Shown here: one piece after another, positions 20,312 to 54,717 of the stretch
How positions within the stretch are numbered: position 1 is the first letter of the stretch
Layout of the letters: the number at the start of each line of letters is the position of its first letter
From: a virus
UHGV virus genome: UHGV-0371537
DNA: 64,000 nt
Strand: one strand, 5' to 3'
Made by a program: the position numbers and the translations under genes
The notes under the pieces: model-generated
Databases searched by the model: none
Seen by the model: only the letters and a program-made list of their open reading frames with translations
Told to the model about the DNA's origin: nothing

Positions 20312-20380
20312 CACGGCAGTTCCTCAAGTAGTTCACTTTCACTTTAAATACCTTCGCATTCATTGCGGAGGTATTTTCTT

Positions 20381-21175
20381 ATGGCCATTCTAAAACTTGG
20401 CAACCGTGGCACTGAAGTGAAGGCACTTCAGGATAGCCTCAACAAAATCGGCTTCACCCTCGTCGCCGACGGCATCTTTGGTAAGGCAACAGAGAACGCT
20501 GTCAAGACTGTTCAGGCGGGTGCGGGGCTTGTCATCGACGGTATCGTGGGTCCAAAGACCTCCTATGCTATTCGCAACGCTGGAGACGCCCATCAAGATC
20601 ACCTGACCGAGGCTGACCTTATCGATGCGGCTAATCAGCTTGGAGTTGATCTCGCCTCTGTAAAGGCGGTCAACCAGGTGGAATCCCGTGGCACTGGCTT
20701 CACCAAGTCAGGTAAGATCAAGACATTGTTCGAACGCCACATCATGTACAAGAAGCTCATGGCGAAGTTCGGCCAGGCTCGGGCGAATGCTATAGGGCAG
20801 ATGTACCCGACGTTGGTCAGTCCTTCTGCAGGTGGGTACACGGGCGGCGATGCAGAACTGGATCGACTTCATGCGGCCATCAACATCGACGAGGATTGTG
20901 CGTACGAGAGTGCCTCATACGGTCTCTTCCAGATCATGGGCTTCAACTGCCAGGTCTGTGGGTATGCCAATGCCAAGGAGATGTTCAATGACTTCCTGAC
21001 AGGCGAACGTGCTCATCTGATGGCATTCGTGAAGTTCATCAAGGCCGATGCCAAGCTCTGGCAGGCTCTGAAGGACAAGAACTGGGCTGAGTTTGCGCGG
21101 CGCTATAATGGTCCGGCGTATGCCAAGAACCAGTACGACACGAAGCTCGCTGCTGCATACAAGAGTTTCAGTTAA
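20381..21175 (+). CDS. endolysin: peptidoglycan-binding domain plus N-acetylmuramidase-like domain
   Basis: N-terminus LKLGNRGTEVKALQDSLNKIGF...DGIFGKAT...GIVGPKT = PG_binding_1-like; C-terminus WAEFARRYNGPAYAKNQYDTKL typical of the DUF3380/muramidase family; ggagg RBS. Confidence 0.8.
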   Translation: MAILKLGNRGTEVKALQDSLNKIGFTLVADGIFGKATENAVKTVQAGAGLVIDGIVGPKTSYAIRNAGDAHQDHLTEADLIDAANQLGVDLASVKAVNQVESRGTGFTKSGKIKTLFERHIMYKKLMAKFGQARANAIGQMYPTLVSPSAGGYTGGDAELDRLHAAINIDEDCAYESASYGLFQIMGFNCQVCGYANAKEMFNDFLTGERAHLMAFVKFIKADAKLWQALKDKNWAEFARRYNGPAYAKNQYDTKLAAAYKSFS

Positions 21176-30980: not shown

Positions 30981-30988
30981 TATTTATA
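30981..30988 (-). promoter_or_regulatory. T4-type late promoter box TATAAATA
   Basis: Plus-strand tatttata 30981-30988; 29 nt upstream of minus-strand ATG 30952. Confidence 0.5.
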
Positions 30989-31001
30989 ACGAGGAATGAA
31001 A

Positions 31002-31526
31002 ATGCGCGGATTCTGTTTTAGCGAAATTGGCAAAGAACTGTCGATACAATATCCAGACCCCAATACAGACTTCTTTATTTTCTTGTCTGACTATGCCCAG
31101 AAAGAGAATATTAGTCACATTGCGATGAAGTACGAAGATTATAAATTTTGTCGATTGGGTGTTAAGGATCTCTTGCGCTTCGGACTGTGTGTCATTATCG
31201 TAGATCAAACCTATAGCCCCATTGATGATGAAGAAGTCCTTCCTGTTTTCGTACATCGCAATATCAACACTCTGGATACACATTTTCCTGGGTGTGTGGT
31301 CGTTGGTGAGCTGGTTCCTTATTTCCACCGTTTGCGGAAGTTGGAACAAATTAAAAGTTATTTTCAAGATGGCGTGGGTCAATATAAGATGAACGTCCTC
31401 GGTAGTGGATGGAAAGTGTTGTCAACAGCTGGTGGCACCGACTATATCAAAATGCGGGTCTATGGTTATGACGTGGACCGCGATTATGAACTGGAGAAAA
31501 GTAATGCAAAAAGAAAACGCCGTTGA
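31002..31526 (+). CDS. hypothetical protein
   Basis: Second ATG chosen for RBS spacing (gagga); divergent from 30146-30952. Confidence 0.45.
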   Translation: MRGFCFSEIGKELSIQYPDPNTDFFIFLSDYAQKENISHIAMKYEDYKFCRLGVKDLLRFGLCVIIVDQTYSPIDDEEVLPVFVHRNINTLDTHFPGCVVVGELVPYFHRLRKLEQIKSYFQDGVGQYKMNVLGSGWKVLSTAGGTDYIKMRVYGYDVDRDYELEKSNAKRKRR

Positions 31527-31995
31527 ACGTACTCCTATTGAGGAAGTACAACAATATGTGTTGGATCTGTTGAAACACACCGTATCCGACGCCGACGGTA
31601 AAGTACCGGATGAGTTTGTCGGTGCATTCGAAGAAGTCGCTCACGATACCGAAGGTGTTCCTCTGATCCAGACGATTGGTGGCCTGTTAATGTTTGATGA
31701 AAAAGCACTGGCTGATGGCGCTGTGCTGTACTCTGCAAACATTGGGGTTGATGGTGAGTCATTGTCTATCGAAGTGTGTAACCTCGCCAAGTACCTGCTG
31801 CAATGCGGCTATGATCTGCGTGTCGTTACAGCTCATTACATCGATCCTCAGGGGCAGATCTCATATGGCGATGAAGGTCGCAAAGTAAAACGTCATATCG
31901 AAACGTCGTTCATTTTGCAGAACATTCAGCAAATGCAGAAGAATTTGGACCACCCGGCGTTGATCCTGCCTGAAGGCAAAATCATCACCCGTTAA
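31504..31995 (+). CDS. hypothetical protein
   Basis: Internal ATG 31504 preceded by ggag. Confidence 0.45.
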   Translation: MQKENAVERTPIEEVQQYVLDLLKHTVSDADGKVPDEFVGAFEEVAHDTEGVPLIQTIGGLLMFDEKALADGAVLYSANIGVDGESLSIEVCNLAKYLLQCGYDLRVVTAHYIDPQGQISYGDEGRKVKRHIETSFILQNIQQMQKNLDHPALILPEGKIITR

Positions 31996-32046
31996 TCCGG
32001 CGTAAATAGCCCATACACCAATGAAACTTCGTTATGGGCTATTTAC

Positions 32047-32637
32047 ATGAAATATTGCGGAATCGACTACTCATATGGTTGTCCATCCCTGTGCTTCTGG
32101 GATGACAAAGACCCTCTTGATTTTGACCACCTGCGCTTCTACGCATATTACACTGTGGAGAAGTACTGCTCTCAAATCCGTCAGAACATCCTTATCATGA
32201 AACAGCCGAAGTGGGAGACTCCAGAAGAGCGCTTCTACAACATCTGTAAATGGGCTGAGGCTGTCCTGTTGACCGAGAAACCGGATGTGATCACTCTTGA
32301 GGGGTATGCTATGGGCAACTCCAAGAACTCCAACAACATCTGCCAGACAGCAGAGAACACTTCTCTATTGAAGCAAGTTCTGCGTCGCCATAACCTGGAG
32401 TTTCAGATTGTGACACCTTCTCATGTTAAGAAGATGTTTACAGACAAAGGCAACGCCGATAAGATCGCCATGATCGCCCACTTCGAAACCCTGTTCAATG
32501 TTAATATGCGCGGTATAATGGATATGTTGGAAGTTAAGGATCCCAAGCCTATCGATGACCTCGTGGATTCGTTTGCAATCATGTCTTGCGGTTCTTACTT
32601 CATTGAGAATAATCCAGACTTCAACAGAGGTGTATGA
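32047..32637 (+). CDS. RuvC-like (RNase H-fold) nuclease, candidate Holliday junction resolvase
   Basis: N-terminal MKYCGIDYSYG (GID catalytic Asp), ITLEGY, DDLVDSFAIM resemble RuvC/YqgF catalytic arrangement. Confidence 0.45.
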   Translation: MKYCGIDYSYGCPSLCFWDDKDPLDFDHLRFYAYYTVEKYCSQIRQNILIMKQPKWETPEERFYNICKWAEAVLLTEKPDVITLEGYAMGNSKNSNNICQTAENTSLLKQVLRRHNLEFQIVTPSHVKKMFTDKGNADKIAMIAHFETLFNVNMRGIMDMLEVKDPKPIDDLVDSFAIMSCGSYFIENNPDFNRGV

Positions 32638-32948
32638 TGGTCGATTACTGGTTGTTGGCGAATTTCTTCACATTCGCTTTGTTGTTGGTGTTTGTACTGA
32701 TATGGGTGAAGTCATTGTTGACTCTCGTCCATGCGTACATGTATCAGATCAACTTCTATACGTTGTCTCCCCACCGGGACACAAACGTCCGTGCGGATCA
32801 ACAGGCCGAAGCCATCATTTCATACCAGTTCATTCACATTCGCGATAAAATGATCAAGCGAGTTGTGTTTTCTACAGCAGTGTTACTGGCTATCATTATG
32901 GTTCGTTTTGTGCTGACAACTGTGGGGGTGTTCCATGCCGCTGTATGA
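32634..32948 (+). CDS. small membrane protein
   Basis: Hydrophobic segments LLANFFTFALLLVFVLIW and VVFSTAVLLAIIMV. Confidence 0.4.
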   Translation: MMVDYWLLANFFTFALLLVFVLIWVKSLLTLVHAYMYQINFYTLSPHRDTNVRADQQAEAIISYQFIHIRDKMIKRVVFSTAVLLAIIMVRFVLTTVGVFHAAV

Positions 32949-33180
32949 TTATCAGTGCGGGGAATGCGGGAATGCGATGACGCTGCGGAAATCAATTGCA
33001 GACCGCCATGAACCAGAATCTAACCCTTGCGCTGAGTGCGGAGGGGAGATTAAAATGGTGGTGGGCGCTCCTAAGATCGTGTCTGGGGTTAAGGGACCAC
33101 AATCTGCACCGGATGGTTTCAAGGACGTTCTGCGCACGATTAAGAAAGGCTCTGGTAAGGGGAACACAATCGATGTCTGA
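32935..33180 (+). CDS. FmdB-family zinc-ribbon protein
   Basis: MPLYDYQCGECG...CAECGG: two CxxC pairs with the MP(L/I)YEY start typical of the family. Confidence 0.5.
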   Translation: MPLYDYQCGECGNAMTLRKSIADRHEPESNPCAECGGEIKMVVGAPKIVSGVKGPQSAPDGFKDVLRTIKKGSGKGNTIDV

Positions 33181-33418
33181 TGATAAATCACCCACACAGG
33201 TGCTGACTGCAGACTCCTTCTCAGAAGCCGTTCTGCTCCGCGCCGCCCGTACCAGAGAAACTATCCTTGAGACACTCGTGGCTGTCTGTGAAGAAAACGA
33301 CATAGATGAAACGAAGGTCAGAAAAATGATCACAGCACCTCTACTGTCCCGACTAACAGCAGAGTGCTCCGATGCGCGTCTTATCAAAGACGTTCTGAAG
33401 TCGAAGAAATTAGTGTAG
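33173..33418 (+). CDS. hypothetical protein
   Basis: Internal ATG 33173 of ORF 32996-33418. Confidence 0.4.
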   Translation: MSDDKSPTQVLTADSFSEAVLLRAARTRETILETLVAVCEENDIDETKVRKMITAPLLSRLTAECSDARLIKDVLKSKKLV

Positions 33419-33425
33419 GTCTATT

Positions 33426-33665
33426 ATGAGCAAAGAATCAATTTACAGTGCAATGAAAGCCCAAGAGTTTCTGCCAGGCTCAATGCGCTGGCGTGTGGGT
33501 AGTCTGAACGAACATGCCGATCAGACGGATCGTATTCGTTATGTCACCCCTGATGGTCGCTCATATGTTGTTGAGTACCACACCCACGTAGAGAGCAAGA
33601 AGACGTTCTCCGACGTGTACGATATTATTGAAATTGACCCAGCATTACAAATGCTTAAAGGTTAA
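33426..33665 (+). CDS. hypothetical protein
   Basis: ORF track. Confidence 0.4.
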   Translation: MSKESIYSAMKAQEFLPGSMRWRVGSLNEHADQTDRIRYVTPDGRSYVVEYHTHVESKKTFSDVYDIIEIDPALQMLKG

Positions 33666-33762
33666 TTCAGTGCAGTAACGGGGTATAATTACCCCGCTTT
33701 AAAGTAAATCGATAATACATGCAACAGAATAGCCCTGAGGGGCGGAAACAGAGGAATTAGAA

Positions 33763-34800
33763 ATGGGTAATTTATTTGATCGTCTGAAGCAGTCCCGTGG
33801 TCAACAGGCCGACGCAATGCAGGCGCGTCTGGCACAGCAAGGCCAGAAGTCCGGCTTCCAGAAGGATCCTCGCATCTGGAAATGGACTTGGAATAAGGAA
33901 GGTATTTCTCAGAACACCATCCGCTTCCTGCCAGTTCCGCTGGTAGACGTCAAGGCACAAGAAGAAGGAACGATCGATAAAGATCAGATCCTGACTCCTT
34001 GCGCCATGATCATGAAGCATCAGTTCCAGGGACCTGGTGGTTGGTACATCGAAAACTCACCTCAGACGTTCGGCAACGACGACCCGGTGCGTGACCATGA
34101 CCGTCCGCTGTGGGCGCAACAGAAAGAAACGAACGACGAAAAGCTGAAGGACGTGCTGAAGAAACGTCTGCCAGACACCAAATACTACGCCAACATCCTG
34201 GTGATCGAAGATGTCAACGTACCGGAAAACAACGGCAAGGTCTTCCTGCTGGAGTTTGGTAACGCCATCAAGAAAATCTTGGACCAGGCGCAGAATCCTA
34301 AGTTCCCGACCGACCCTAAATTCGACCCGTTCGATCTGTGGGAAGGTGCCAACCTGAACCTCAAGCTCTTCGGTGAGCAGAAGAAGTTCGGCAACTGGGA
34401 AGGTCTGGTGGCTAACTTCTCCAACGTCAGCTGGGCGGCTCCGGCTCCGCTGAGCGAAGACGAAGCCTACATGGAAGACGTGTGGTCTCGTGAACATAGC
34501 CTGTTTGAATTCTTCAACCCGGCGAATTTCAAGAGCTACGATGACCTGGAGAAACGCCTGCGCAAAGTGCTGGCGATTCCTGATGGTCAGCCTCTGGTTG
34601 AAGGTGGTGCGGCTACTATGGCGCATGCCCCTACGAACCAGGCTCCAGCACAACAGCCTGTTAAACAACAGCCAACTGCTCAAGACAGCCTGAACCAACA
34701 GCAATCACAACCTTCGCAGTCTGCTGTTAATCATCAGACGCCGGATCCTAAAGCAACAGGGTCTATCGAAGACTTTGAGCAGTTCCTCAAAGATAACTGA
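33763..34800 (+). CDS. 32: single-stranded DNA-binding protein gp32
   Basis: IRFLP, YYANILVIEDVNVPENNGKVF, LWEGANLNLK match T4 gp32 (VIRFLP, YWANILVV...PENEGKVF, PWEGANF); acidic/Gln-rich C-terminus. Confidence 0.9.
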   Translation: MGNLFDRLKQSRGQQADAMQARLAQQGQKSGFQKDPRIWKWTWNKEGISQNTIRFLPVPLVDVKAQEEGTIDKDQILTPCAMIMKHQFQGPGGWYIENSPQTFGNDDPVRDHDRPLWAQQKETNDEKLKDVLKKRLPDTKYYANILVIEDVNVPENNGKVFLLEFGNAIKKILDQAQNPKFPTDPKFDPFDLWEGANLNLKLFGEQKKFGNWEGLVANFSNVSWAAPAPLSEDEAYMEDVWSREHSLFEFFNPANFKSYDDLEKRLRKVLAIPDGQPLVEGGAATMAHAPTNQAPAQQPVKQQPTAQDSLNQQQSQPSQSAVNHQTPDPKATGSIEDFEQFLKDN

Positions 34801-54166: not shown

Positions 54167-54717
54167 TTCGCCAACTCCTGCTCAAGCTGATTCACGAAGC
54201 TGGATACATAATCCGGATCCAGAACTTTGATGGATCTCTTGGCTTCGTTCTTGCTGATTGCGTCATCATGATATGAAACTGCCGTCAGACCATAGTTAGC
54301 AATGATGGACGGCTCATCCAGATCAAGTCCATATGCGAATTTGATCGCTCGAGCGTCAGTTACGTTGTTGAACTGGTCTACATAATAGGCAGTATCCCAC
54401 ATTCCATCAATGCCATAATCTGCCATCAATTCTTCAACGATGCGCTGTTCTGGTTTTGGCCAATCCTTGTTGATATCCATAATGCCATTGATCAGGCATG
54501 GTATCCAAAACAGCTCGAAGGAACCGTAGACACGCTCTGCAAATGACCTTGGGGTTTCCCCCTCTTGGACAGTATAAGGCAGGAGAAGTCCTTCGATGTC
54601 CTTAATTTTCTGTATGATCATGACCCGCCGAGTTAAGTTCTGCAGCAGTATAGTGTCTTGTTTCTGTGCATCCACCAACTGATGCCATACGAGCGGGAAT
54701 TTCTCAAAATATTTCAT
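54163..54717 (-). CDS. baseplate-associated protein (unassigned)
   Basis: ORF track; within late hub block. Confidence 0.35.
   Translation of the reverse strand: MKYFEKFPLVWHQLVDAQKQDTILLQNLTRRVMIIQKIKDIEGLLLPYTVQEGETPRSFAERVYGSFELFWIPCLINGIMDINKDWPKPEQRIVEELMADYGIDGMWDTAYYVDQFNNVTDARAIKFAYGLDLDEPSIIANYGLTAVSYHDDAISKNEAKRSIKVLDPDYVSSFVNQLEQELAK

What the first reader, a model, noticed from the sequence alone, without database searches (positions are those of the whole stretch)
32047..33665. RuvC-like nuclease and zinc-ribbon mini-genes upstream of gene 32
A protein starting MKYCGIDYSYG with later ITLEGY and DDLVDSF resembles RuvC/YqgF-type nucleases, whereas T4 resolves junctions with the unrelated endonuclease VII. 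It is followed by a membrane protein, an FmdB-type zinc ribbon and two orphans.
Basis: partly seen in the sequence, partly recalled or inferred. Interest (0 to 1): 0.4.

Follow-up and report, generated by a model that had tools for sequence, protein, structure and literature searches.

The report
Phage RuvC-type junction resolvase operon
The gene is a genuine RuvC-type DNA junction-cutting enzyme, but it is the standard, already annotated resolvase of the ViI-like (Ackermannviridae) phages to which this window belongs, so the finding is correct but ordinary.

Summary
Five tightly packed genes on the + strand occupy 32047-33665, just upstream of gene 32. The first, of 196 aa, is a RuvC-family nuclease with the RNase H fold. 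It matches PHROG 159 "RuvC-like Holliday junction resolvase" at E=2e-52. Its AlphaFold model (pLDDT 89) has bacterial RuvC as its 12 best PDB matches. The acidic tetrad D7/E85/D171/D174 is invariant in 51 diverse relatives and aligns with D/E/D/D of E. coli RuvC. No YqgF or poxvirus A22 signal was found.

The window is not a T4-type phage. It is an Ackermannviridae phage, about 87-88% identical to Yersinia phage CAU_YEP3 and Dickeya phage LIMEstone1. In those records the same gene is already annotated ruvC, and no endonuclease VII is present.

The other, of 79 aa, is a true family-restricted unknown.

One extra point: a conserved hairpin ends 1 nt before the ruvC start codon and carries the putative late-promoter motif TAAATA in its 5' arm. 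This looks like the T4-style switch that limits translation to late transcripts.

The feature is of a known kind and of low interest.

The parts
32002..32046 (+). Hairpin that ends 1 nt before the ruvC start codon. The 5' arm is 32002-32015 (GTAAATAGCCCATA) and contains the putative late-promoter motif TAAATA at 32003-32008. The 3' arm is 32033-32046 (TATGGGCTATTTAC) and covers the weak GGG Shine-Dalgarno-like stretch.
   Evidence: RNA fold gives -20.9 kcal/mol, z=-4.95, with 0 of 200 shuffles as stable. A hairpin at the same place is seen in all relatives examined, with compensatory changes and a paired G/C insertion. LIMEstone1 annotators mark the same TAAATA as a putative late promoter.
32047..32637 (+). 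RuvC-family junction endonuclease (196 aa) with predicted catalytic residues D7, E85, D171 and D174.
   Evidence: PHROG 159 E=2.2e-52. Pfam RuvC 21.4 bits. NCBIfam RuvC E=2.5e-7. Family profile against PDB gives RuvC at E=6e-7. AF2 pLDDT 89. Foldseek top 12 PDB hits are all RuvC. The tetrad is invariant in 51 relatives.
32634..32948 (+). Small membrane protein (104 aa, two hydrophobic segments), function unknown. Its start overlaps the ruvC stop (ATGA).
   Evidence: PHROG 4696 E=3.5e-39. Hydropathy segments at about residues 5-33 and 74-104. The LIMEstone1 orthologue is noted as having 2 transmembrane domains.
32935..33180 (+). FmdB-type CxxC...CxxC zinc-ribbon protein (81 aa). It overlaps gp33 by 8 nt.
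   Evidence: PF09723 36.5 bits, cut-off 34.4. TIGR02605 40.4 bits, cut-off 31.3. It sits next to gp33 with an 8-nt overlap in every Ackermannviridae locus examined; in the 42%-identity relative L002 a 107-aa ORF lies between them.
33173..33418 (+). Homologue of T4 gp33, the late-transcription coactivator (81 aa).
   Evidence: PF16805 E=1.2e-17, 64 bits, cut-off 25. PHROG 254 E=2.9e-20. Annotated gp33 in LIMEstone1, Ag3 and EspM4VN.
33426..33665 (+). 79-aa conserved protein of unknown function, restricted to Ackermannviridae.
   Evidence: PHROG 4100 E=4.3e-45. Only 15 clusters were found, all at least 65% identical. AF2 pLDDT 81 shows a helix plus a beta sheet. No PDB fold match; best E=0.05.
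33763..34800 (+). Gene 32 single-stranded DNA-binding protein (context; the downstream anchor of the block).
   Evidence: PF08804 E=1.4e-57. PHROG 224 E=2.3e-100.

Best explanation
32047-32637 encodes the RuvC-family structure-specific endonuclease of an Ackermannviridae (ViI-like) phage. Shown: it has the RNase H/RuvC fold and the four metal-binding carboxylates (D7, E85, D171, D174) in the RuvC arrangement. Shown: it belongs to a large phage family already named 'RuvC-like Holliday junction resolvase'. Inferred: by analogy with E. coli RuvC and lactococcal phage bIL67 RuvC, it acts as a homodimer with two Mg2+-dependent active sites. The dimer would nick Holliday junctions and other branched DNA made by the phage's UvsX/UvsY/UvsW/gp46-47/gp32 recombination-dependent replication. 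That would debranch concatemers so they can be packaged. This is the job endonuclease VII (gp49) does in T4, and no gp49 gene is annotated or found in this phage family. Inferred: expression is late. The gene heads a five-gene operon (ruvC, membrane protein, Zn ribbon, gp33, orf79). A hairpin in front of it pairs the putative late-promoter motif TAAATA with the translation-initiation region. Read-through transcripts from upstream would fold the hairpin and hide the ribosome-binding site. Transcripts started at the late promoter would lack the 5' arm and be translated, the logic known for several T4 late genes.
For: Family and fold: PHROG 159 E=2.2e-52 and PHROG 1770 'Holliday junction resolvase' E=3.8e-8. 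Pfam RuvC is the only nuclease family hit (21.4 bits). NCBIfam RuvC E=2.5e-7. 28 of 51 diverse relatives hit Pfam RuvC on their own. The family profile against PDB sequences returns only RuvC, with the best at E=6e-7. The AF2 model has pLDDT 89 and pTM 0.87 with beta1-3/alphaA/beta4/alphaB/beta5 topology. Foldseek PDB ranks 1-12 are all bacterial RuvC (E=4e-8 to 1e-5, TM up to 0.74), followed by Ydc2, MOC1 and phage bIL67 RuvC. In BFVD, 86 viral matches have E<=1e-3, and the named ones are phage RuvC-like resolvases.

Catalytic residues: D7, E85, D171 and D174 are invariant in 22 close and 51 diverse relatives at 25-59% identity. hhalign and hmmsearch place E85 on E66 and D171/D174 on D138/D141 of E. 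coli or P. aeruginosa RuvC. Those are the published tetrads (PMC3864405).

Context: the same gene is annotated ruvC in LIMEstone1, EspM4VN, Ag3 and others. LIMEstone1 carries uvsX, uvsY, uvsW and gp46/47 but nothing annotated as endonuclease VII in 150 of its 152 kb. tblastn with a recalled T4 gp49 sequence found nothing.

Selection: 44 synonymous against 12 non-synonymous codon differences.

Hairpin: z=-3.6 to -7.1 in seven Ackermannviridae-type sequences. It is conserved with compensatory changes. The endolysin gene in the window and many LIMEstone1 late promoters have the same design. A T4 precedent is reviewed in PMC2988022.
Against: No biochemical data exist for any Ackermannviridae RuvC-like protein in the literature searched. 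The protein falls just under Pfam's gathering score (21.4 against 22.2 bits) and far under the NCBIfam RuvC equivalog cut-off (30.7 against 163), so it is not an orthologue of bacterial RuvC. Identity to solved RuvCs is only 13-17%. Residues 89-102 are modelled with pLDDT below 50. Dimerisation, substrate range and metal dependence were not testable. The absence of endonuclease VII rests on annotation plus tblastn with a sequence recalled from memory; no profile search was run. For the hairpin, TAAATA as the late promoter is only a prediction by the LIMEstone1 annotators. The Shine-Dalgarno-like element in this window is weak (GGG). The same hairpin could simply be an intrinsic terminator for the two upstream genes.
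Confidence: 0.8

Rival explanations
1. The protein has the RuvC fold but is not the packaging or recombination resolvase. It could serve another nucleolytic role, for example host-DNA degradation, nicking of replication forks, or processing of the phage's hypermodified DNA. In that case junction resolution would be done by a host enzyme or an unrecognised phage enzyme.
For: Phage RuvCs are promiscuous; bIL67 RuvC nicks forks and is toxic in vivo (PMC3864405). Sequence distance from bacterial RuvC is large, at 13-17% identity. An additional invariant acidic residue, E103, and a disordered loop at 89-102 have no assigned role.
Against: The complete catalytic tetrad is conserved and the fold matches junction resolvases only, namely RuvC, Ydc2 and MOC1. 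No other resolvase candidate is annotated in LIMEstone1. The gene is single-copy and universally syntenic with recombination and replication genes.
Confidence: 0.12
2. The gene encodes a YqgF/RuvX-type or poxvirus A22-type RNase-H-fold nuclease rather than a RuvC proper.
Against: A Pfam scan at E<=1 returned RuvC and no RuvX/YqgF or Pox_A22 family. No YqgF or A22 structure appears among the top 50 PDB matches, and no poxvirus protein is among the named top-50 BFVD matches (many rows carry no name). The D-x-x-D motif in the last helix aligns with RuvC D138/D141.
Confidence: 0.02
3. The hairpin in front of ruvC is only a Rho-independent terminator for the two upstream genes, and the TAAATA in its stem is incidental. 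On this view ruvC is not translationally gated.
For: In Kuttervirus-type relatives the 3' arm is followed by a U run (GGGUAUUUUU). LIMEstone1 annotators label equivalent hairpins at the endolysin and ORF129 starts as terminators.
Against: The 3' arm ends 0-7 nt from the start codon in every relative. In the more distant relatives it contains a clear Shine-Dalgarno sequence, GGAG or AGGAG. The promoter-like motif always lies in the 5' arm. The design recurs at other late genes, including endolysin, as in T4 gene e. The two roles are not mutually exclusive.
Confidence: 0.3

Closest known systems
Ackermannviridae 'RuvC-like Holliday junction resolvase' (e.g. Dickeya phage LIMEstone1 ruvC, YP_007237378.1; PHROG 159)
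   Same: It is the orthologue: 94% amino-acid identity to LIMEstone1 over all 196 residues. It has the same position between the gp26-like baseplate hub gene and the Zn-ribbon/gp33/gp32 genes, and the same upstream hairpin and TAAATA motif.
   Different: Only sequence-level divergence. The best nucleotide match for the block is 88%, so the phage is probably a distinct species. The start codon is the MKYCG ATG, because the upstream ATG used in LIMEstone1 is out of frame here.
Bacterial RuvC (E. coli 1HJR, P. aeruginosa 6LW3, T. thermophilus 4LD0, D. radiodurans 7XHJ)
   Same: Same fold and topology, with TM up to 0.74 normalised on the target. Same D/E/D/D tetrad with D-x-x-D in the last helix. 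Conserved VKK...G.G.A.K segment.
   Different: 13-17% identity. About 35 extra residues, including an extra strand/insert at roughly 20-58 and a disordered loop at 89-102. It is below the NCBIfam equivalog cut-off. There is no RuvAB partner in the phage. Sequence-specific cleavage was not assessable.
Lactococcus phage bIL67 RuvC (PDB 4KTW; the biochemically characterised phage RuvC)
   Same: A phage-encoded, single-domain RuvC-fold resolvase. The tetrad is equivalent (D8/E71/D145/D149 in bIL67 against D7/E85/D171/D174 here). A conserved Ser lies two residues after the first Asp.
   Different: A weaker structural match than bacterial RuvC (E=8e-4 against 4e-8, 13% identity). The acid spacing in the last helix differs: D-x-x-x-D in bIL67 and D-x-x-D here.
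T4 endonuclease VII (gp49)
   Same: Inferred functional analogue: a debranching enzyme of a phage with T4-type recombination-dependent replication. Both are likely late-expressed. An RBS-sequestering hairpin combined with a late promoter is reported for T4 late genes; the review PMC2988022 cites Barth et al. 1988 on gene 49 in that context.
   Different: The fold and family are unrelated; gp49 is an HNH/His-Cys box nuclease. No sequence similarity was found.

Membership tests
RuvC family (Pfam PF02075 / RNase H-like clan) | RNase H-like alpha/beta fold with RuvC topology | tested here: met
   AF2 model pLDDT 89. Foldseek PDB ranks 1-12 are all RuvC, E=4e-8 to 1e-5, probability 1.00.
RuvC family (Pfam PF02075 / RNase H-like clan) | Four catalytic acidic residues (E. 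coli D7, E66, D138, D141) | tested here: met
   D7, E85, D171 and D174 are invariant in 51 relatives. E85, D171 and D174 align to E66, D138 and D141. D7 ends strand beta1 as in RuvC. Published tetrads are in PMC3864405.
RuvC family (Pfam PF02075 / RNase H-like clan) | Score at or above the curated family threshold | tested here: not met
   Pfam gives 21.4 bits against a gathering score of 22.2. NCBIfam RuvC equivalog NF000711 gives 30.7 bits against a cut-off of 163. However, 28 of 51 relatives hit PF02075 at E<=0.01, and the family profile hits PDB RuvC at E=6e-7. It is therefore a distant member of the superfamily and not an orthologue of bacterial RuvC.
RuvC family (Pfam PF02075 / RNase H-like clan) | Homodimer making paired Mg2+-dependent nicks in Holliday junctions | not testable with these tools
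   Only monomer prediction is available. It needs biochemistry.
Phage RuvC-like resolvases (PHROG 159) | Full-length profile match | tested here: met
   E=2.2e-52, residues 1-194. The family is large: 4172 representatives at E<=1e-3.
YqgF/RuvX and poxvirus A22 resolvases | Profile or fold match to those families | tested here: not met
   No such Pfam hit at E<=1. Neither appears among the top 50 PDB matches or the named top-50 BFVD matches.
FmdB-family zinc ribbon (PF09723 / TIGR02605), for 32935-33180 | CxxC...CxxC ribbon scoring above the curated cut-offs | tested here: met
   36.5 bits against 34.4 and 40.4 bits against 31.3. C8-x2-C11 and C32-x2-C35 are visible in the sequence.
T4 gp33 late-transcription coactivator (PF16805), for 33173-33418 | Profile match above threshold, and co-occurrence with gp55-type late sigma and gp45 clamp | tested here: met
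   64 bits against a cut-off of 25. LIMEstone1 encodes a late sigma factor and a gp45 clamp.
T4-type late-promoter/RBS-sequestering hairpin switch | Stable hairpin whose 3' arm covers the translation-initiation region and whose 5' arm holds the late promoter | tested here: met
   Geometry and stability. Conservation with compensatory changes. The identity of the promoter motif is only predicted.
T4-type late-promoter/RBS-sequestering hairpin switch | Late transcripts start inside the stem, and early transcripts are translationally silent | not testable with these tools
   Needs 5'-end mapping and reporter assays.

The most novel reading that the evidence does not exclude
Ackermannviridae may have replaced T4's endonuclease VII with an unrelated RuvC-fold resolvase while keeping the same control logic, convergently or by inheritance. 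In that logic, a late promoter embedded in a hairpin hides the ribosome-binding site on read-through transcripts. The design may be used genome-wide in this family (ruvC, endolysin and several structural genes) and appears not to have been described for it. A second, weaker possibility is that the FmdB zinc-ribbon protein, which overlaps gp33 by 8 nt in all Ackermannviridae relatives examined, is an unrecognised component of the late-transcription apparatus.
Probability: 0.4. Interest if true: 0.35.

Novelty: already known. Interest (0 to 1): 0.15.

Why it matters
It matters little beyond correct annotation. The gene identifies the likely debranching enzyme of ViI-like phages, many of which are used or proposed for biocontrol (Dickeya, Salmonella, E. 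coli O157). These phages carry hypermodified thymidine (from my own knowledge), so a RuvC-fold enzyme that works on such DNA could be a useful reagent. No enzyme of this clade has been characterised biochemically in the literature I could search. The promoter-in-hairpin arrangement, if verified, would extend a classic T4 regulatory device to another phage family and would help annotate late genes there.

Tried and rejected
1. Direct phmmer of the protein against PDB sequences gave only noise. A family profile was needed.

2. YqgF/RuvX and A22 membership was rejected, with no profile or fold support.

3. An IS110/IS621-type transposase RuvC domain appears only at E of about 1e-3 with TM 0.35-0.41, and the protein lacks the second domain. 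Rejected.

4. orf79 led nowhere. The Pfam Prok-JAB hit (E=9e-4, below cut-off) was not supported. Homologues occur only in Ackermannviridae. The AF2 model (pLDDT 81) has no PDB match below E=0.05, and scattered OB-fold hits (RPA32, RMI2) at TM of about 0.3 are not significant. Function remains unknown.

5. A search for endonuclease VII found nothing. tblastn with a T4 gp49 sequence recalled from memory had a best E of 0.37 in the window and in 150 kb of LIMEstone1, and no such product is annotated. This is absence of evidence at BLAST sensitivity only.

6. The exact T4 late-promoter octamer TATAAATA occurs only twice in the window, no more than chance. The family's motif is the shorter TAAATA.

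7. Automatic MAFFT/RNAalifold alignment of the hairpin was partly out of register because of paired indels, giving 3 compensatory pairs of 12 and weak energy. Per-sequence folding was more informative.

8. The paper on T4 gene 49 regulation (Barth et al. 1988, PMC1203513) is not held. I relied on the review PMC2988022, whose text prints '39' but cites that gene 49 paper.
Full report
**What is there.** The interval 32047-33665 holds five co-oriented genes on the + strand that overlap or nearly abut.
- ruvC-like gene, 32047-32637, 196 aa.
- A 104-aa protein with two hydrophobic segments, 32634-32948. Its start overlaps the ruvC stop as ATGA.
- An 81-aa zinc ribbon, 32935-33180, with a 14-nt overlap.
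- An 81-aa protein, 33173-33418, with an 8-nt overlap.
- A 79-aa protein, 33426-33665.

Gene 32 follows at 33763-34800 (PF08804, E=1.4e-57). All five products match PHROG families at E between 3e-20 and 2e-52.

**Where the window comes from.** The block is 87-88% identical at the nucleotide level to Yersinia phage CAU_YEP3, Salmonella phage pSal-SNUABM-02, Enterobacter phage EspM4VN and Dickeya phage LIMEstone1. Weaker matches bring the total to 146 phage records, covering Salmonella, Klebsiella, Dickeya, Escherichia and Shigella ViI-like phages. LIMEstone1 is classified as Ackermannviridae; Aglimvirinae; Limestonevirus. The window is thus a ViI-like phage with T4-type replication and late-transcription genes, not a T-even phage. 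In LIMEstone1 the same block is annotated as ruvC, a protein with 2 transmembrane domains, a putative regulatory protein, gp33, a hypothetical protein and gp32. A 2024 paper on Vi01-like phages also lists a 'RuvC-like Holliday junction resolvase' next to the zinc-ribbon and late-transcription accessory genes (PMC10892097).

**The nuclease: profile evidence.**
- PHROG 159 'RuvC-like Holliday junction resolvase' matches at E=2.2e-52 over residues 1-194, and PHROG 1770 'Holliday junction resolvase' at E=3.8e-8.
- Pfam RuvC (PF02075) is the only nuclease family hit, at 21.4 bits, just under the 22.2-bit gathering score.
- The NCBIfam RuvC equivalog model gives E=2.5e-7 but only 30.7 bits against a cut-off of 163, so this is not an orthologue of bacterial RuvC.
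- An exhaustive profile search found 4172 cluster representatives at E<=1e-3 and 251 at E<=1e-30, so the family is large.
- Of 51 diverse members at 25-59% identity, 28 hit Pfam RuvC individually and no other family.
- A profile of those 51 finds only RuvC chains in the PDB, the best being D. radiodurans RuvC at E=6e-7.

**The nuclease: structure evidence.** An AlphaFold2 model from 22 sequences has mean pLDDT 89 and pTM 0.87, with RuvC/RNase H strand and helix order. Only the loop at 89-102 is unreliable. In Foldseek against the PDB, the top 12 hits are bacterial RuvC from Deinococcus, Thermus, Pseudomonas and E. coli (E=4e-8 to 1e-5, TM up to 0.74). These are followed by the mitochondrial resolvase Ydc2, the chloroplast resolvase MOC1 and lactococcal phage bIL67 RuvC. 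Against BFVD there are 86 matches at E<=1e-3, and the named ones are phage RuvC-like resolvases. No YqgF/RuvX or poxvirus A22 signal appears in any of these searches.

**Catalytic residues.** D7, E85, D171 and D174 are invariant in both alignments. hmmsearch and hhalign place E85 on RuvC E66, and the P-x-D-D-x-x-D-[AS]-x-A segment on the P-x-x-D138-x-x-D141-A-L-A segment of E. coli and P. aeruginosa RuvC. D7 ends strand beta1, as in RuvC. The published tetrads are EcRuvC D7/E66/D138/D141 and bIL67 RuvC D8/E71/D145/D149 (PMC3864405). S9, E103, K128 and K139 are also invariant. The gene is under purifying selection, with 44 synonymous and 12 non-synonymous codon differences against LIMEstone1.

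**Likely role.** LIMEstone1 encodes UvsX, UvsY, UvsW, gp46/47, gp32 and a gp59-like loader. Nothing is annotated as endonuclease VII in 150 of its 152 kb. tblastn with a recalled T4 gp49 sequence found nothing in that genome or in the window, whereas the RuvC-like gene is found once in each. I infer that this protein is the family's branched-DNA resolvase and does the job of T4 gp49. The inference rests on homology and context; no biochemical study of an Ackermannviridae enzyme turned up.

**Synteny.** The order is gp26-like hub (opposite strand), one or two unknown genes, ruvC, a small membrane protein, Zn ribbon, gp33, (orf79), gp32. It holds in relatives down to 61% RuvC identity. In looser form it also holds in a 42%-identity relative that carries a 5-hmdU DNA kinase domain gene nearby.

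**The other four genes.**
- The zinc ribbon passes both curated thresholds, PF09723 and TIGR02605.
This fits the T4 neighbourhood of genes 33 and 32.
- The zinc-ribbon gene overlaps gp33 by 8 nt in every Ackermannviridae relative examined. That suggests co-expression but proves nothing about function.
- The 79-aa ORF is a genuine orphan. It is restricted to Ackermannviridae and models confidently (pLDDT 81), but has no significant fold match.

**Regulation, seen in passing.** A 14-bp hairpin (32002-32015 paired with 32033-32046) ends 1 nt before the ruvC ATG. Its free energy is -20.9 kcal/mol with z=-4.95. Its 5' arm contains TAAATA (32003-32008), the motif that the LIMEstone1 authors annotated as a putative late promoter at this gene and at 32 other sites (PMC3296691).

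A hairpin in the same position occurs in every relative examined, with sequence changes that keep the pairing:
- CCCATAAC/GTTATGGG becomes CCCATATC/GATATGGG, CCCGTAA/TTACGGG or CCCT/AGGG.
- A paired G/C insertion is present in this window.
- Entirely different stems containing GGAG or AGGAG occur in distant relatives.

In the window the endolysin gene has the same design (TAAATACCTTCGCA...TGCGGAGGTATTT, then ATG). Such promoter-complement pairs are far more frequent than at random positions: 3 distinct sites against a mean of 0.135. Many LIMEstone1 late promoters share the design.

This is the architecture reviewed for T4 late genes that lie on long early or middle transcripts, namely e, soc, I-TevI and others, with Barth et al. 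1988 on gene 49 cited in that context (PMC2988022). There the hairpin hides the ribosome-binding site, and late transcripts begin too far downstream to form it. I propose the same switch here, as an inference. The rival reading is that the hairpin is just a terminator for the two upstream genes. Neither the LIMEstone1 paper nor the other papers I searched describe this arrangement for the family.

**Verdict.** The gene is a typical, already annotated member of a large phage RuvC-like family in a phage family where it is universal. Interest is low, and the promoter-in-hairpin arrangement is the only mildly new element.

Noticed in passing
window 32002-32046 (also L001 6103-6147, and the regions just upstream of the ruvC start in L007-L011, L002, L030, L032, L074): A conserved hairpin ends 1 nt before the ruvC start codon. 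The putative late-promoter motif TAAATA lies in its 5' arm and the translation-initiation region in its 3' arm. Compensatory substitutions and a paired indel occur across relatives. It looks like the T4-type switch (genes e, soc, 49, I-TevI) that restricts translation to late transcripts.
   Followed up: partly
window 20345-20385 (+): The gene at the position of LIMEstone1's endolysin has the same design: TAAATACCTTCGCA, a loop, TGCGGAGGTATTT, then ATG 4 nt later, with the GGAGG Shine-Dalgarno inside the 3' arm. T4 lysozyme gene e is regulated this way. At least seven annotated late promoters in LIMEstone1 (record positions 54277, 89729, 92918, 121728, 123292, 135156, 147905) share it.
   Followed up: partly
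window 33679-33696 (+), between orf79 and gene 32: A short GC-rich hairpin, CGGGGTA-TAAT-TACCCCG, has a TATAAT(T)A-like centre. It is conserved in relatives; one relative has TATAAATA at the same place (L009). It could be a terminator/promoter combination or part of a gene 32 leader. The 97-nt AU-rich leader recalls the autoregulated T4 gene 32 leader.
   Followed up: partly
window 32935-33418; L007-L011: The FmdB zinc-ribbon gene overlaps the gp33 gene by exactly 8 nt in every Ackermannviridae relative examined and stays close to it in a 42%-identity relative (L002). This hints at co-expression with the late-transcription coactivator. No functional evidence.
   Followed up: no
window 32035-32046 versus L001 6136-6147: LIMEstone1 and several database entries start the RuvC-like ORF at an upstream ATG inside the hairpin (MGIY-MKYCG...). 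In this window that ATG is out of frame because of the 1-nt insertion in the stem. This supports the MKYCG ATG as the true start across the family.
   Followed up: yes
window 30981-30988 (-): One of only two full T4-type TATAAATA octamers in the window lies about 29 nt upstream of the likely start (about 30952) of the gp26-like baseplate hub gene. That gene diverges from the two unknown genes (30996-31526 and about 31510-31995) that precede ruvC.
   Followed up: no
L002 11654-12561: A distant relative with the same ruvC...Zn ribbon...gp33...gp32 order carries an HMUDK_hel (5-hydroxymethyl-dU DNA kinase) domain gene just downstream of gene 32. This suggests the syntenic block extends to other thymidine-hypermodifying phages.
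   Followed up: no
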